A stretch of 64,000 bases of DNA from Promethearchaeota archaeon (GCA_016840085.1 JAEOTA010000019.1:1-64000), one strand, 5' to 3'. Shown: positions 6,969 through 22,595, numbered from the stretch's first letter. Translations and numbers: made by a program. The notes: a model not told the origin generated them from the letters alone.

Positions 6969-7973
6969 ATGCCTTCGAATGGTTCTGATGGAAAAGACGA
7001 AGAGTTACAAAATTGGGAGAAGGAGCTCTTTGCTAATCATCGTTGGGGACGGCTCAAAGTGTGGTTCCCTGAGGATCATGTTTCTTTAGATAGTGAAATA
7101 GTATCTAGTGAACACACATTTCTCAGGAATCTTTGGAAAAAAGCTCAACCACTTGATCAAACAGGTAAGGATATTTTAAAAAGTATAATTGATCTTGAAA
7201 TATGTAATTGGAATCTTGAGAACAGTATTATAAGTATATGTAAGGCAATAGGTGAAAATAGAGCTCCCACAATCCCAATTGGTCATTTAAAATCAATCAA
7301 AAGCGAAAGATGGATGAAAATTTGTGCATACTATTTAGCGCTGCGGAGTTGGCTTCCATCTTTAGGAACTAGTGGTTATGAAGCTCTTCAAAATTTATGT
7401 GATCCTGATAAATCTGTGAAGAAAATGATTTATGAATTACTCAATGAAAGAAATAGATTAAAAGAGTTATATGTAGAGCGTATTTGTCTTTTATTTGAAT
7501 TTTGGATTGGGGGGTATTGGGGGAAATCACCTCAATTGATTGCTCATCTTGCTGCTGTAAAAGCAATTGAAAATGAGATCCTAAAAATACATCCAGATAG
7601 TTTGATTTTAAAAGCGATGATATCTGAAGGTGATGGTAGGCTTCAACCTTGTAATCATAAAGCTTTCCGTAGATATGATATAATAATTTCCAGTATCGGA
7701 GCAGGTAAGTGGAGAGCGACTATGCCGAGGAAGGGAACTGATGGATTAAAACGAGCTGTCCTTCTAGATAAATATTTCCAAGCAATTAAATCCTGGATTA
7801 GAGATCATAAAAAAATTGAAGAGGGTGATGGTGACAAATTATTCCAAATAATTCATAATCTTCTTGGAGAACCAGACAATAAAAAAAAATTCCTTGCATC
7901 ACTTCTTATTTCATTACTACAACCTCAACAAATGGCAGCGAAGCTATTAGCAGAGAATCGTATTAAAGATTAA
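6969..7973 (+). CDS. Hypothetical protein
   Basis: 334-aa ORF, no recognised motif. Confidence 0.7.
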   Translation: MPSNGSDGKDEELQNWEKELFANHRWGRLKVWFPEDHVSLDSEIVSSEHTFLRNLWKKAQPLDQTGKDILKSIIDLEICNWNLENSIISICKAIGENRAPTIPIGHLKSIKSERWMKICAYYLALRSWLPSLGTSGYEALQNLCDPDKSVKKMIYELLNERNRLKELYVERICLLFEFWIGGYWGKSPQLIAHLAAVKAIENEILKIHPDSLILKAMISEGDGRLQPCNHKAFRRYDIIISSIGAGKWRATMPRKGTDGLKRAVLLDKYFQAIKSWIRDHKKIEEGDGDKLFQIIHNLLGEPDNKKKFLASLLISLLQPQQMAAKLLAENRIKD

Positions 7974-8075
7974 TTAATACTATCAATGTCAGCAAAAACT
8001 TTTCAAAAACTAGAGATCCTTATAATTTTAAATAAACATACTTCTCATTATATAAATTAATTTAAGCTATTTTAT

Positions 8076-8771
8076 TTACCTAGAATCCTTGTAAATAACT
8101 TTTCGAATCTTTTCTGCGGCAATCTTAGGATTTTTGGCACGAGTAATTCCTCCTCCTATAATAATAATATCCAGTGGATAAGTGAGTAGCTTAGAAATAT
8201 CGGTGACTCGAATCCCCCCAGCTATTGCTAACCGGGGACGGTCTTGTAAGTGTATTACTGACTCCAATTCTGATAATGGGGCTCTTCGTGATGCTTGGAT
8301 ATCTAAACCACTATGCACTAAGGCATAATGCACTTTTGTACCTTTATAATTTATATTAATAAGATCTGCTAATCTTTTGGAAGGTTTTCGAGACACAATA
8401 AGGTCTGCCATAATCTCCACATGAAACTCATGTGCAGCACGCAGCGCTTCCTCGATTGTATTGTTATAAGCATCGGCAAGAACTGTAATAATATCGGCTT
8501 TTGCTTTAGCCGCCATCCGTGTCTCAAGGTATCCCGCATCTGTGGTTTTTAAATCGGCACAAACTAACTTGTTTGGGTGTGTTTCCTTTAACGTTCGAAT
8601 AGCTCTTACACCTTCAGATTTTATTAAAGGTGTTCCAGCTTCCAAAATATCTACAAAAGGAGCAACTTGTTTTGCTATCGCCAAAGCATCATCTAATATT
8701 TCTAAATCCAATGCCACTTGTAGCAATGGTTTTTGTTGGTTCTTTTTACGCGTATGTGAAAAACCCATCAC
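8076..8771 (-). CDS. hxlA: 3-hexulose-6-phosphate synthase / KGPDC family
   Basis: LQVALD, EAGTPLIKSEG, ADLKTTDAG, AIAGG. Confidence 0.8.
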   Translation of the reverse strand: MMGFSHTRKKNQQKPLLQVALDLEILDDALAIAKQVAPFVDILEAGTPLIKSEGVRAIRTLKETHPNKLVCADLKTTDAGYLETRMAAKAKADIITVLADAYNNTIEEALRAAHEFHVEIMADLIVSRKPSKRLADLININYKGTKVHYALVHSGLDIQASRRAPLSELESVIHLQDRPRLAIAGGIRVTDISKLLTYPLDIIIIGGGITRAKNPKIAAEKIRKVIYKDSR

Positions 8772-15965: not shown

Positions 15966-16207
15966 GTAATCAGCGATTAGATACTGAAAGATTAATCCTC
16001 AATTAATTTAGACATTTTTTGTTGAGGTCTATTATTCATATTAGTTTACTGATAAATCGAAATAAGTATTATGGTTATTTTTCTATAAGTAATTGAATAT
16101 TAATCTAATATTTCACAATTTGCTAATGAAATTTATGTGAAAAATATATATATCAAATTGATTAAACTATTTTTTGATAAAATAAAATTTATGATGAGAT
16201 TATTCAA

Positions 16208-16672
16208 ATGAAGGATAAATTTCAATTAGTTGGGACAAAAATTCAAGAATTCAAATTACCTAATTCAAGAGGAGAAACCTTAAACATCAGAGACTTAGAG
16301 GGAAAAAATGTCGTAGTAGTCCTTTTCAGGGATATACATTGACCTTATTGTCGTTGGCATGCTGCAAAACTCCGAAGAGACTATGAAAAATTTCAAGAAT
16401 CAAATACTTACTTGTATACAATATTAGCAGATAAAAAGAAAAATGCAATTAAAATGGAACAAAAATATGCGCGCAAATATGCTGTGTTTTATGATAAATC
16501 AAAAAAAGTTCCCAAAATGCTTAAACAACAAGTTAAAATAACTAAACTTGGAAGAATGCCAGGATTATTGGTCATTGATAAGCAAGGAATCATTCAATAT
16601 GCATATTATGGAGATAACATGCATGATATTCCCACAAATGAAGAGATTTTCGAAGTATTAAAAAAGATATAA
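16208..16672 (+). CDS. Peroxiredoxin-like (AhpC/TSA redoxin) protein with in-frame TGA at codon 45 in UxxC; probable selenoprotein, 154 aa
   Basis: MKDKFQLVGTKIQEFKLPNSRGETLNIRDLEGKNVVVVLFRDIH-TGA-PYCRWH... continues in frame into track ORF 16412-16672 (PGLLVIDKQGIIQYAYYG). Confidence 0.85.
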
Positions 16673-16679
16673 TAATATT

Positions 16680-16751
16680 GATTTGGTAGGAATAAAGTAG
16701 AAAACAAAAATGATGCTTTTTTCCTAAAAGTTAGCCAAACTTTTCCAAATC
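16680..16751 (+). promoter_or_regulatory. Predicted three-way-junction RNA structure in the 3'UTR of the TGA-containing gene (SECIS candidate or terminator)
   Basis: GATTTGG/CCAAATC closing stem, TAGGAATAAAGTA/TGCTTTTTTCCTA hairpin, AAAGTT/AACTTT hairpin; paired by eye. Confidence 0.4.
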
Positions 16752-16802
16752 TTTTTTGATTTGAAGAAACAATTAATTAAACTATAAATTTATTAATTTG
16801 AT

Positions 16803-17438
16803 TTAAAAACTCAAATTTCTAAAGATATAGGTGCTAGCTGTTTTTGTATAACCTATACCCCGTTGAATTTTCTCTAAATAACTCTTAGTAACTTTTAAAT
16901 CTGATTTTTTAGGGATGAAATATTTGTCTAAATTCTTTTCAGTTAATCGATAGTGCCGATTACTTCGATAAATAACCCCTATAAATTCATAATATTCATC
17001 TAGGTATGCCATACTTGCATCACCATGGTTATTGTTTGCTAAAAGGATTCCACCTTTCTTAAGGTATTTTTTACAGCTTTGCGAGATAAAACCACCATAT
17101 TGGGAAATTAGCAAATCAAAATCTTTAAAAGTTTCTCCAATATTAGAATTATAATCTTTATGGTGGAATCTGATAACTGGTTGCTTCTTATATGTTCGAT
17201 TTTTATAAATAAATTCAAAAATGCTTTTGTCCCTAAAGAAATCTTTTACTTTTTTATAAGTATCGATATACACAGTTATAGGAATATATAATGACGGTGC
17301 TATATGTATATAACTTCCAGGATAAATAGCACTCTGTATTTCATACTTATTAACTAAAAGCTCAAATATTTCCCTTCTATCACCATTAGAAAAATGTTGT
17401 GTATACTCCTGAACCGCCTTTCCCTTTAATGGTATCAC
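16803..17438 (-). CDS. Hypothetical protein, possibly methyltransferase-like fold
   Basis: YPGSYIHIAPS, FDLLISQYGG, YLKKGGILL. Confidence 0.65.
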   Translation of the reverse strand: MIPLKGKAVQEYTQHFSNGDRREIFELLVNKYEIQSAIYPGSYIHIAPSLYIPITVYIDTYKKVKDFFRDKSIFEFIYKNRTYKKQPVIRFHHKDYNSNIGETFKDFDLLISQYGGFISQSCKKYLKKGGILLANNNHGDASMAYLDEYYEFIGVIYRSNRHYRLTEKNLDKYFIPKKSDLKVTKSYLEKIQRGIGYTKTASTYIFRNLSF

Positions 17439-18624: not shown

Positions 18625-19257
18625 ATGACATTAGATTTTGAATTTCAATTCTTAACTTATGGAATATTGAATTGGATTGCTTTTATCTTATTAGTTTCAT
18701 CTTTTGTTTTTCTTGTCTTAGGGAGTCTTGATCAAAAAAAAGACCTTAAAGAATTGTCAAAGTTGTTAGTTTTTCTTGGAATTGTATTATTAATCTGGGA
18801 AATAATTAGCCTTTTAATCCCAAATGTTGTTGGCGATTCACCAACATCATCAGAAACGACAACAGGATTCATCTATGATTTGCTTCTCTTTATTTTAGTT
18901 CCTAATCTACTTCACATAATTCTTGGAATCCTTTTCATTCTATTTGGAGTTAAAAATATCACTCCAACTGGTCAGATTATCTCATTAGCAGGATTATTTT
19001 ATTTTATTGCAATGTTCGAGAGTTTTTTTATTGGAACTATTAGTACATATTCTGGATGGTATGATCCAACCTTCATTGATTCATTACAAAGTATTTTAAA
19101 ACTAATGGAATGGATAATGTACATCTCTTATCTTTTTGCAGCATTATTAGTTATAATCTATTCTGCTAAACTAAAATCGAAATTTCTTCTTATATATGGA
19201 TTATTTACCCTTGCTGTAGGGACGCTTGAACTTTTAAGCTTTCTTGAAATAATTTAA
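18625..19257 (+). CDS. Multi-pass membrane protein
   Basis: About 6 hydrophobic segments. Confidence 0.75.
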   Translation: MTLDFEFQFLTYGILNWIAFILLVSSFVFLVLGSLDQKKDLKELSKLLVFLGIVLLIWEIISLLIPNVVGDSPTSSETTTGFIYDLLLFILVPNLLHIILGILFILFGVKNITPTGQIISLAGLFYFIAMFESFFIGTISTYSGWYDPTFIDSLQSILKLMEWIMYISYLFAALLVIIYSAKLKSKFLLIYGLFTLAVGTLELLSFLEII

Positions 19258-21675: not shown

Positions 21676-21770
21676 TTATATTGAATTCTTTTTAATTAAA
21701 ACAAAATTCCTTGATGATCCAAATCTAGTGGTGGGATTAAAATTAAAGATTACCTTGATGAATAGTTACA

Positions 21771-22595
21771 TCAACCAAGATTATCTTGAATAAAATTCCA
21801 TATTGAATTATTAGCTTCCTCAGGATCTTCAATAGTAAATGCATGTCCTAATCCGTTTAAAATTTCTAATTTTGAGTTTGGCATTTTCTCATGCATTTCT
21901 TCTCTCATTCCTGGTATCGTCATTTTGTCTCTTGATCCTGAAATTATTAATGTAGGTTGAGTAATATTCTGTATTGTGTCTCGCATATCAAAGTCCCTTA
22001 ATGCTTCAATTTGATTAATCCAATCCTTATAAAGAGAGGGATCAAAAGTTTGAGCGCAAAAGTTCATGTCTTTCTTTATGATGTCAAATAATTCTTTATC
22101 TTCATTTAGTTTTTTTTTAAATACCCTTGAATATACGAGTGGGAACCAATATTCAACTCTTTGGCCTTGATCTAAATCTTTTAACGTCTGATATGTAAGG
22201 TAATTTTGATCAATTGTTTTTGAAGGATAATAGCTAAATGTACTACATAATATCAATGTTTTTATCATTTCAGGATACTTTAAAACAAATCTCTGAGCAA
22301 TCATCGCTCCCATACTTGATCCACACAAATGAATACCTTCCTTTATATTGAGATAATCACATAAATTCTTAAAATCCTCAACAAACATTTCCATGGTATA
22401 GTGATAATCTGGGCGGGAACTCTTTCCTTCACCTCGTTTATCAAAAGCAATCACTGTCATCTTATCTTTAAAAAAATCAATTTGGTAATTCCAGGATTGC
22501 AGTTTAGTAAAACTACCACTAACTAATACTAAAGGCTCTCCCTGTCCCTCCTTTATATAATTAATATCAATATTATTATAACTAAAAATTGGCAT
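21771..22595 (-). CDS. Alpha/beta hydrolase
   Basis: DKRGEG, GSSMG, GSRD, GHAF. Confidence 0.88.
   Translation of the reverse strand: MPIFSYNNIDINYIKEGQGEPLVLVSGSFTKLQSWNYQIDFFKDKMTVIAFDKRGEGKSSRPDYHYTMEMFVEDFKNLCDYLNIKEGIHLCGSSMGAMIAQRFVLKYPEMIKTLILCSTFSYYPSKTIDQNYLTYQTLKDLDQGQRVEYWFPLVYSRVFKKKLNEDKELFDIIKKDMNFCAQTFDPSLYKDWINQIEALRDFDMRDTIQNITQPTLIISGSRDKMTIPGMREEMHEKMPNSKLEILNGLGHAFTIEDPEEANNSIWNFIQDNLG

What the first reader, a model, noticed from the sequence alone, without database searches (positions are those of the whole stretch)
16208..16672. Hidden selenoprotein: peroxiredoxin-like with UxxC
Seen: one TGA (16340-16342) sits exactly at the first Cys position of a redoxin CxxC (H-U-P-Y-C), with intact coding sequence on both sides. 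Known: TGA aligned to a catalytic Cys is the standard selenocysteine signature, and Lokiarchaeia are reported to encode Sec. The ORF track shows only the last 86 aa. The gene lies about 0.8 kb from msrB/msrA.
Basis: partly seen in the sequence, partly recalled or inferred. Interest (0 to 1): 0.8.

Follow-up and report, generated by a model that had tools for sequence, protein, structure and literature searches.

The report
Known Asgard peroxiredoxin-like selenoprotein gene
This is a real selenocysteine-encoding, peroxiredoxin-like redox gene of a Loki-type Asgard archaeon that gene callers cut in half; the family was published in 2016 and 2024, so the only unusual part is the three-armed RNA signal behind the gene, which lacks the usual kink-turn core.

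Summary
Window 16208-16672 (+) is one 154-codon thioredoxin-fold frame (Pfam AhpC-TSA, 80 bits) with a single in-frame TGA at 16340-16342, in the motif H-U-P-Y-C.

The selenocysteine reading is supported:
- The genome holds SepSecS, an EFSec candidate, PSTK, two TGA-bearing SelD genes and an intron-split tRNA-Sec.
- TGA otherwise ends 13% of long open frames.
- The TGA sits at the same codon in 31 of 31 extracted relatives, down to about 53% identity.
- All 41 full-length database homologs show W at this site, which is the mark of TGA read under code 4. None has Cys.
- Codon-position conservation is the same on both sides of the TGA.

The family is already catalogued. Huang et al. 2024 (PMC11227280) list 29 Lokiarchaeial "Prx-like" selenoproteins with XP[YF]CRWHA. 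The scan has also reported it on other DNA (e1-5590966, e1-3060016).

By sequence the protein is a cytoplasmic TlpA/ResA-like UxxC oxidoreductase, not a true peroxiredoxin. The msrB/msrA neighbourhood is not conserved in relatives.

The atypical part is the 3'UTR element at 16676-16755. It is a covarying three-helix RNA with a lokiSECIS-like apical hairpin but no AUGA_GA core. It occurs once per genome, downstream of this gene family wherever its position was checked.

The parts
16208..16672 (+). Complete PrxL (Prx-like, UxxC) selenoprotein gene: 154 codons plus a TAA stop
   Evidence: Searches give the frame and Pfam AhpC-TSA at 80 bits. Searches give orthologs with the same frame. One search gives codon-position differences of 0.235/0.124/0.429 upstream and 0.246/0.145/0.419 downstream of the TGA.
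16340..16342 (+). TGA codon 45, read as selenocysteine (the nucleophile of the U-P-Y-C redox box)
   Evidence: TGA is at the same aligned column in 31 of 31 relatives. All 41 full-length database homologs show W here, i.e. TGA. The site aligns with the first Cys of CxxC in 3hdc and ResA.
16349..16351 (+). TGT codon 48, the only Cys of the protein; presumed resolving residue of the UxxC box
   Evidence: sequence; one C and one U per protein. It is replaced by Ala or Ser in a sister subgroup.
16676..16755 (+). Three-helix 3'UTR element, the presumed SECIS of this gene
   Evidence: Covariance model R1 scores 82.5 bits here, against 22.8 bits on the antisense strand, and this is the only strong hit in the genome. 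It is present behind 30 of 30 TGA-bearing orthologs. Covariation: 8 pairs changed on both sides against 1.8 in shuffles.
16680..16686 (+). Lower stem, 5' strand (GAUUUGG), starting 8 nt after the stop codon
   Evidence: MFE fold. Invariant within the family-level set. It covaries in more distant orthologs: GAUGC/GCAUC, UCAAAC/GUUUGA, CUGGCC/GGCCAG.
16687..16726 (+). Hairpin 1: long A/U stem with an A-rich apical loop GAAAACAAAAAUGA. It matches the lokiSECIS upper stem and loop but has no AUGA_GA at its base.
   Evidence: Loops in the relatives aligned mostly end in UGAG or UUAG, like the canonical lokiSECIS loops of this genome.
16727..16743 (+). Hairpin 2: AAAGUU / AACUUU stem whose loop holds the conserved UAGCC motif
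   Evidence: Searches show G-C to C-G swaps in this stem. The UAGCC loop is kept even in GC-rich orthologs G051, G053 and G055.
16745..16751 (+). Lower stem, 3' strand (CCAAAUC), followed by a U tract at 16752-16757

Best explanation
The locus encodes a 154-residue cytoplasmic thioredoxin-fold oxidoreductase of the Asgard 'Prx-like' (PrxL) selenoprotein family. Codon 45 (UGA) is decoded as selenocysteine by the genome's archaeal/eukaryal-type pathway: tRNA-Sec, PSTK, SepSecS, SelD and EFSec. Shown here: one continuous frame under equal purifying selection on both sides of the UGA; an invariant UGA in all relatives examined; the full machinery elsewhere in the genome; and UGA used as an ordinary stop in other genes. 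Inferred: recoding is directed by the three-helix element that starts 8 nt after the stop codon (16676-16755). Its first hairpin has the stem length and the A-rich apical loop of the lokiSECIS (ending mostly in UGAG or UUAG in the relatives aligned). Its base is Watson-Crick paired instead of carrying the AUGA_GA quartet, and a second hairpin carries a conserved UAGCC loop. Inferred chemistry: the Sec45 selenolate at the N-terminus of helix 1 attacks an oxidised substrate (a disulfide, sulfenate or peroxide). Cys48 then resolves the adduct into an intramolecular selenenylsulfide, which a thioredoxin-type reductant reopens. The natural substrate is unknown. The gene contexts point to repair of oxidative or light damage: msrB/msrA here, and heliorhodopsin plus UvdE in most same-genus relatives.
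For: Frame, motif and family. Machinery. TGA conserved in about 40 genome hits at 38-88% identity and at the same column in 31 of 31. 41 of 41 full-length database homologs read W (TGA) and none reads Cys. Codon-position pattern is equal on both sides. TGA ends 250 of 1866 long open frames. The exact subfamily is listed as a selenoprotein in the supplement of PMC11227280 and the family is described in PMC4989117. 3'UTR element. It is absent behind the non-TGA paralogs. No canonical lokiSECIS lies within 1.5 kb of any of 30 orthologs.
Against: There is no protein-level evidence (mass spectrometry or 75Se) for this gene or any ortholog. The 3'UTR element lacks the AUGA_GA core that defines every described Asgard or eukaryotic SECIS, so its role as a SECIS rests on association and partial resemblance. 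EFSec and PSTK score below the NCBIfam cut-offs, which appear to be set for other lineages (my reading; selB and selen_PSTK are nevertheless the best hits). The genome is a MAG with 7.6% estimated contamination, and the machinery lies on other contigs.
Confidence: 0.92

Rival explanations
1. The gene is a pseudogene, or the TGA is an assembly or sequencing error in a former Cys or Trp codon.
For: Table-11 ORF calling splits the frame. The source is a MAG.
Against: The TGA is at the same codon in 31 of 31 relatives from different genomes, and in more than 40 database homologs called with W. Purifying selection is the same on both sides. A dedicated conserved 3'UTR RNA follows the gene.
Confidence: 0.01
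2. UGA at codon 45 is read through as a standard amino acid (Cys or Trp by near-cognate decoding, or lineage-wide reassignment) rather than as Sec.
For: Gene callers produced full-length proteins with W at this site on short contigs. No protein data exist.
Against: TGA ends 13% of long open frames in this genome, and it ends this same gene in several orthologs. The machinery genes have no internal TGA, except SelD at its known Sec site. A complete Sec pathway is present. The site is the redox nucleophile of a CxxC box, the classic Sec position.
Confidence: 0.04
3. UGA terminates translation, and the locus yields a 44-residue peptide plus a separately initiated C-terminal protein (the 86-aa track ORF).
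For: A TTG-started ORF (16412-16672) exists downstream of the TGA. Public annotations list such fragments.
Against: The model is a single compact domain (pLDDT 92, pTM 0.88). Its strands at 16-19, 24-26 and 34-40 and its active-site helix would be lost or split. The N-terminal 44 codons show the same coding constraint as the rest. The fragments would lack the redox box.
Confidence: 0.02
4. The three-helix 3'UTR element is not the SECIS but a transcript-end element (terminator, stability or regulatory RNA). On this view Sec insertion depends on something not yet recognised.
For: No AUGA_GA quartet can be paired. In this genome a U tract follows the element.
Against: Most orthologs have no U tract after it. 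It is strand-specific (82.5 against 22.8 bits). It occurs once or twice per genome, and behind TGA-bearing PrxL genes, including a UxxU paralog, wherever that was checked. It is missing behind the non-TGA paralogs. Its first hairpin copies the stem length and loop of the canonical lokiSECIS of the same genome, and it shares their three-helix layout. No other conserved structure or canonical SECIS lies nearby.
Confidence: 0.2

Closest known systems
Asgard 'Prx-like' (PrxL) selenoproteins: PrxL.1 (UxxU) and PrxL.2 (UxxC) of Mariotti et al. 2016 (PMC4989117); 'Prx-like thiol:disulfide oxidoreductase' of Huang, Xiao and Zhang 2024 (PMC11227280)
   Same: AhpC/TSA thioredoxin fold. Sec at the first position of the redox box. 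No Cys outside the box. Lokiarchaeial origin. The supplement of PMC11227280 holds 29 sequences with XP[YF]CRWHA that align along the whole protein.
   Different: The published lokiSECIS (AUGA, 9-bp stem, 11-nt loop, GA) is not found behind this subfamily. A three-helix variant without the GA quartet stands there instead. A second PrxL of the same genome (NWUSHC, contig C4) does carry the canonical form.
TlpA/ResA/DsbE-like thiol-disulfide oxidoreductases (PDB 3hdc, 4nmu, 1su9)
   Same: These are the best sequence matches among solved structures. The W-C-P-Y-C box of 3hdc aligns with H-U-P-Y-C. The R-x-P segment before the last strands is shared. TM-scores normalised by target are 0.84-0.87.
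   Different: Those proteins use Cys, are mostly extracytoplasmic and carry an N-terminal anchor or signal. This protein starts MKDKFQLVG with no hydrophobic segment, so it is probably cytoplasmic.
BCP/PrxQ-type peroxiredoxins (PDB 3drn, 3hjp, 2cx3)
   Same: Top structural matches (TM 0.83-0.87) and the same Pfam family.
   Different: True Prx have T/S-x-x-C with the peroxidatic Cys at the second position. Here Sec occupies the Thr position, so the redox box is thioredoxin-like.
lokiSECIS / eukaryote-like SECIS (kink-turn core AUGA_GA)
   Same: It lies in the 3'UTR within about 10 nt of the stop codon. It has a stem of about 9-10 bp and an apical loop that is A-rich and, in most relatives (11-12 nt), ends in (U)GAG. 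It shares the overall three-helix layout of the seven canonical elements of this genome.
   Different: The base of hairpin 1 is Watson-Crick paired and covaries (G-U, G-C, A-U, U-A at columns 16/56). The junction strands are only 2, 3 and 1 nt long. No GA_GA quartet is possible. A conserved UAGCC loop and, within the family, an invariant lower stem are added.

Membership tests
Asgard Prx-like (PrxL) selenoproteins | AhpC/TSA (Redoxin) thioredoxin fold | tested here: met
   Pfam PF00578 at 80.3 bits and PF08534 at 65.5 bits. AlphaFold pLDDT 92.3 with Prx and ResA structural hits.
Asgard Prx-like (PrxL) selenoproteins | UxxC or UxxU redox box with in-frame TGA at the first position | tested here: met
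   U-P-Y-C at codons 45-48. Same column in 31 of 31 relatives.
Asgard Prx-like (PrxL) selenoproteins | No Cys outside the redox box (Mariotti 2016) | tested here: met
   One Cys and one Sec per protein.
Asgard Prx-like (PrxL) selenoproteins | Sequence membership in the published catalogue | tested here: met
   Files 51, 79 and 86 of PMC11227280 hold 22 sequences with PYCRWHA and 7 with PFCRWHA, with X at the Sec site, alignable end to end.
Asgard Prx-like (PrxL) selenoproteins | Canonical lokiSECIS (AUGA, 9 bp, 11 nt, GA/AA) in the 3'UTR | tested here: not met
   No match in the 3'UTR, CDS or 5'UTR of 31 genes, nor within 1.5 kb apart from two chance matches inside coding sequence. The same scan finds seven good elements elsewhere in the genome. 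A variant three-helix element is present instead.
Asgard Prx-like (PrxL) selenoproteins | Host genome encodes tRNA-Sec, PSTK, SepSecS, EFSec and SelD | tested here: met
Peroxiredoxins proper (Prx) | PxxxT/SxxC active site with the peroxidatic Cys at the second position | tested here: not met
   The sequence reads R-D-I-H-U-P-Y-C: Sec replaces Thr/Ser and Arg replaces the Pro. NCBIfam Prx equivalogs score 17-40 bits against cut-offs of 123-374.
TlpA/ResA/DsbE-like thiol-disulfide oxidoreductases | CxxC at the N-terminus of helix 1 of an extended thioredoxin fold | tested here: met
   U45 aligns with the first Cys of WCPYC in 3hdc and of CxxC in ResA. The helix starts at residue 46.
TlpA/ResA/DsbE-like thiol-disulfide oxidoreductases | Extracytoplasmic location (signal peptide or membrane anchor) | tested here: not met
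   The N-terminus MKDKFQLVGTKIQEF has no hydrophobic stretch. This was read from the sequence; no predictor was run.
SelL-related redox proteins (NF040769) | Score above the curated cut-off of 120 bits | tested here: not met
   43.2 bits, covering residues 12-101 only.
Eukaryote-like SECIS / kink-turn RNAs | Tandem sheared G.A pairs (AUGA on the 5' side, GA on the 3' side) at the base of the upper stem | tested here: not met
   Positions at the base of hairpin 1 form covarying standard pairs. Pattern scans find no such core.

The most novel reading that the evidence does not exclude
The UP[YF]C branch of Asgard PrxL selenoproteins is decoded through a SECIS that has lost the kink-turn (AUGA_GA) core. 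It relies instead on a tight three-way junction with a conserved UAGCC loop and a near-invariant lower stem that starts at the stop codon. If so, Lokiarchaeia would run two SECIS recognition modes side by side in one cell. That bears on how SECIS recognition evolved between archaea and eukaryotes, where no Asgard SECIS-binding protein is yet known. I found no description of this element in the papers and supplements I could read.
Probability: 0.4. Interest if true: 0.55.

Novelty: already known. Interest (0 to 1): 0.3.

Why it matters
For annotation, the gene should be called as one 154-residue selenoprotein, not as an 86-aa "redoxin" fragment. Public records of its relatives are either truncated or carry Trp at the Sec site.

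For biology, the protein adds nothing new to the published Asgard selenoproteome.

The 3'UTR element does matter somewhat. It is a well-supported, widespread RNA structure (74 of 151 genomes of the class) that keeps the apical part of the lokiSECIS but drops the GA quartet considered essential in eukaryote-like SECIS elements. It is a natural test case for what the still unknown Asgard SECIS reader recognises.

Tried and rejected
- **Rfam on the window and ARAGORN.** These found no tRNA-Sec or SECIS. RF01852 on the whole genome gave only ordinary tRNAs below the cut-off. The real tRNA-Sec was found only by a permissive scan next to EFSec and SepSecS, because it is split by two insertions.
- **A by-eye SECIS candidate in the 5'UTR** (16126-16161, AUGA...GA with a bulge). 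No equivalent was found in the 5'UTR scan of the relatives, so I dropped it.
- **A functional link to msrB/msrA.** None of 35 orthologous loci (1.5 kb on each side) holds any of the window's neighbours. It stays as a weak, local hint only.
- **Cys/Sec pairing within the family.** No close homolog has Cys at the site. The two non-TGA paralogs have Asp there (D-L-F-C). Cys occurs only in distant CxxC relatives.
- **A lokiSECIS-like pattern on the minus strand at window 22454.** It lies inside ORF 21750-22595 and has a mismatch and a 10-nt loop, so I take it as chance.
- **Alternative pairings that would create a GA quartet** (lower stem against the UAGCC loop, AUGA in the hairpin-1 loop, the looser NNGAN...N[GA]ANN model of Huang 2024). 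None fits the conserved sequence when worked through by hand on alignment A1.
- **Supplement of Mariotti 2016.** It is not held as text. I could therefore not see which PrxL 3'UTRs they folded.

Full report
**Observation.** Window 16208-16672 (+) is a single frame of 154 codons from ATG to TAA. Its only internal stop is TGA at 16340-16342 (codon 45), in ...VVVLFRDIH-U-PYC-RWHAAKL.... Read through, the protein matches Pfam AhpC-TSA over residues 8-131 (80.3 bits, E 1.4e-22) and Redoxin (65.5 bits), and the match spans the TGA.

**Is the TGA a Sec codon?**
- *Machinery in the window's own genome (4.68 Mb, 89 contigs, 29.5% G+C):*
  - SepSecS scores 390 bits on Pfam and 487 bits on TIGR03531, against a cut-off of 225.
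  - A translation GTPase has selB as its best family (235.7 bits), against 138 bits for EF-1alpha.
  - A PSTK aligns end to end with TIGR03574 at 138.6 bits.
  - Two tandem SelD genes each carry one in-frame TGA.
  - The tRNA-Sec escaped Rfam's threshold and ARAGORN.
  - A permissive scan between EFSec and SepSecS on contig C32 found it, with loop CUUCAAA and a ~30-nt insertion in the T loop (cmscan printed 31 nt; the splice gives 30). Mariotti et al. describe a 31-nt T-loop intron in Lokiarchaeota (PMC4989117).
  - Its 5' acceptor strand lies further upstream, because a second 34-nt insertion splits the D arm.
  - With both insertions removed, the 90-nt RNA folds by minimum free energy (-46.6 kcal/mol) into a 9/4 cloverleaf. 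It has a 7-bp D stem, a 4-nt D loop, a UCA anticodon and a G discriminator.
- *TGA is otherwise a stop.* It ends 250 of 1866 open frames of at least 300 codons, and it is the terminator of this very gene in several orthologs.
- *Conservation in genomes.* A six-frame search of 80 related genomes found homologs in 46 of the 81 genomes searched (the window's own included). About 40 of the hits have exactly one in-frame TGA, at 38-88% identity across genus, order and class.
- *Same codon everywhere.* In the 31 genes I extracted, the TGA is at the same aligned codon, in the motif U-P-[YFH]-[CA].
- *Protein databases.* In a 5.8-billion-protein collection, all 41 full-length homologs carry W at that position, which is TGA called under code 4. 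The other 60 are C-terminal fragments. None has Cys.
- *Selection on both sides.* Mean pairwise differences at codon positions 1, 2 and 3 are 0.235/0.124/0.429 upstream of the TGA and 0.246/0.145/0.419 downstream. Both halves are therefore translated in this frame under the same constraint.
- *Verdict on alternatives.* Pseudogene, sequencing error, termination with re-initiation, and genome-wide reassignment are all effectively excluded.

**What the protein is.**
- The nearest solved structures by sequence are a thioredoxin-family protein with W-C-P-Y-C (3hdc) and ResA. U45 aligns with their first Cys.
- An AlphaFold model (pLDDT 92.3, pTM 0.88) is one compact domain. U45 sits directly before helix 46-57 and after strand 34-40.
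- Foldseek ranks BCP/PrxQ, AhpC and ResA structures at TM 0.77-0.87.
- True peroxiredoxins carry T/S-x-x-C with the reactive Cys second. Here Sec takes the Thr position and the box is thioredoxin-like, which is the published definition of 'Prx-like'.
- The protein has one Cys and one Sec and no hydrophobic N-terminus.
- I therefore read it as a cytoplasmic selenol/thiol-disulfide oxidoreductase. Sec45 attacks the substrate, Cys48 resolves the adduct to a selenenylsulfide, and an external reductant recycles the enzyme. These steps are inferred from the family, not shown here.
- A sister subgroup has U-P-Y-A or U-P-Y-S, with no resolving Cys. Two non-TGA paralogs have Asp at the Sec position.

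**Already known.** Mariotti et al. 2016 reported PrxL as one of five Lokiarchaeial selenoprotein families. Huang et al. 2024 found it in 43% of Sec-using Asgard archaea. Their sequence files contain 22 entries with XPYCRWHA and 7 with XPFCRWHA. These align with this protein from MKDKF to the C-terminus, next to the XPYAKAH and NWXSHC types. Public records of relatives are labelled Candidatus Lokiarchaeota. The scan itself has reported the same family on other DNA with the same verdict (e1-5590966 and e1-3060016). As a selenoprotein, this is a further copy of a catalogued family.

**Context.** msrB and msrA lie 0.8-1.3 kb downstream. None of 35 orthologous loci (1.5 kb of flank on each side) contains them or any other neighbour from the window. 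In the same genus the gene instead usually sits with a heliorhodopsin (16 loci), a UvdE UV endonuclease (14), a PNPOx-like protein (17) and a DUF1761 protein (10). Both settings suggest oxidative or light damage, but this is a hint only.

**The recoding signal.**
- *No canonical element.* The published lokiSECIS is AUGA, a 9-bp stem, an 11-nt loop (A-rich, ending in AG) and GA, close behind the stop codon. A strict scan finds seven such elements in this genome. Five of the seven are behind frames I could name: four VhuD-like genes and a second PrxL (NWUSHC) on contig C4; the other two follow a C-U-U protein and a 78-aa membrane protein, both without a Pfam match. No such element occurs in the 3'UTR, CDS or 5'UTR of this gene or its 30 relatives. 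None lies within 1.5 kb either, apart from two chance matches inside coding sequence.
- *What stands there instead.* All 30 TGA-bearing genes whose 3'UTR was aligned are followed, within about 10 nt of the stop, by a 75-85-nt element. It has a lower stem (GAUUUGG/CCAAAUC). Hairpin 1 has a 9-10-bp stem and an 11-14-nt A-rich loop, mostly ending in UGAG. Hairpin 2 has a UAGCC-containing loop.
- *In the window.* The element spans 16676-16755: lower stem 16680-86 with 16745-51, hairpin 1 at 16687-16726, hairpin 2 at 16727-16743.
- *Covariation.* RNAalifold recovers this Y shape. On the alignment, 95.5% of cells are paired, against at most 59% when the partners are slid. Eight pairs change on both sides, against 1.8 in shuffles, and 0 of 500 shuffles reach the observed value on any measure.
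- *Distant orthologs.* They fold on their own into the same shape with different helices. The lower stem becomes UCAAAC/GUUUGA, GAUGC/GCAUC or CUGGCC/GGCCAG. Hairpin 1 becomes GGCACGGGA/UCCCGUGCC. UAGCC is kept in most of them.
- *Distribution.* A covariance model built from the alignment hits the own genome once (82.5 bits; the antisense strand scores 22.8). It hits 74 of 151 genomes of the class, once or twice each. Wherever I checked, the hit lies behind a U-P-x-[C/A/S] gene, and once behind a UxxU paralog. The non-TGA paralogs lack it.
- *Relation to the canonical form.* The seven canonical lokiSECIS elements of this genome sit in the same three-helix layout. Each has a lower stem, then AUGA, the hairpin and GA, then a short second hairpin. 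Their loops (AAAAAAAUGAG, GAAAAAAUGAG and similar) resemble the hairpin-1 loops of the PrxL element. The PrxL element therefore looks like a derivative of the lokiSECIS.
- *What is missing.* The junction strands are only 2, 3 and 1 nt long. The base of hairpin 1 forms covarying standard pairs (G-U, G-C, A-U, U-A), so no GA_GA quartet can form. It also fails the looser model of Huang et al. (NNGAN...N[GA]ANN, checked by hand).
- *Prior notes.* I found no mention of such an element in the texts and supplements available.
- *My estimate.* I put about 0.75-0.8 on the element being this gene's SECIS. I put about 0.4 on the full novel reading: a functional, kink-turn-less and undescribed SECIS.

**Limits.** No expression or protein data could be obtained. 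The genome is a MAG with 98.8% completeness and 7.6% contamination. EFSec and PSTK score below cut-offs that I take to be set for other lineages. The substrate and the physiological reductant are unknown.

**Verdict.** The selenoprotein belongs to an already known family, so interest is low to moderate. The non-canonical SECIS-like element is the one feature worth an experiment.

Noticed in passing
G000 contig C32:24374-24527 (L019:16375-16528): The tRNA-Sec gene is split by two insertions: 34 nt in the D arm and 30 nt in the T loop. The spliced 90-nt RNA folds into a perfect 9/4 archaeal tRNA-Sec cloverleaf. Mariotti 2016 described only the T-loop intron. The gene lies between EFSec (C32:18.5-19.5 kb, minus strand) and SepSecS (C32:25.05-26.2 kb).
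   Followed up: partly
G000 contigs C4(-)77338, C9(-)52118, C19(+)107596, C24(-)112265, C44(+)46859, C82(+)24457, C82(-)91172: All seven canonical lokiSECIS elements of the genome sit in one three-helix layout: a lower stem, then AUGA, a 9-bp hairpin and GA, then a short second hairpin. This is what a kink-turn in a three-way junction (k-junction) would look like.
   Followed up: partly
G000 contig C82:24200-24436 (L095:201-437, +): A 78-aa predicted membrane protein with T-Q-U-P-S-A-C, followed by a canonical lokiSECIS within about 20 nt of its stop. The TGA is kept in two same-genus genomes at 70-74% identity. It has no Pfam match, and its motif is not in the supplement of Huang 2024. It may be an uncatalogued small selenoprotein.
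   Followed up: partly
G000 contig C19:107151-107588 (L094:252-689, +): A 145-aa protein with adjacent TGA-TGA (…PDSG-C-U-U…) and a canonical lokiSECIS. Both TGAs are kept in nearly all of its matches (36 of 37), which lie in 33 of the 41 genomes searched. The scan has already followed this family up as a ubiquitin-fold C-U-U selenoprotein family (e1-5573265).
   Followed up: partly
G000 contig C4, about 76.9-77.9 kb, minus strand (L093): A second, divergent PrxL selenoprotein (FFRGNW-U-SHC) in the same genome. It carries a textbook lokiSECIS, so the canonical and the variant signal coexist in one cell.
   Followed up: partly
G000 contig C78:5990-6754 and 7319-8158: Two tandem SelD (selenophosphate synthetase) genes, each with one in-frame TGA.
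   Followed up: no
Loci L023-L042 (same-genus orthologs): In most same-genus genomes this PrxL gene sits with a heliorhodopsin, a UvdE UV endonuclease, a PNPOx-like flavoprotein and a DUF1761 protein. This looks like a light and oxidative damage island.
   Followed up: partly
L043, L044, L048, L039:295-759, L069, L070, L075, L078, L080: A sister subgroup has U-P-Y-A, U-P-H-A or U-P-Y-S, that is Sec without a resolving Cys and no Cys at all. It keeps the same three-helix 3'UTR element. Two non-TGA paralogs (G069:C126:6218-6685 and G070:C159:885-1352) have Asp at the Sec position and lack the element.
   Followed up: partly
window 16803-17438 (-) and 18625-19257 (+): The 211-aa gene convergent with PrxL and the 210-aa multi-pass membrane protein after msrA have no Pfam match.
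   Followed up: no
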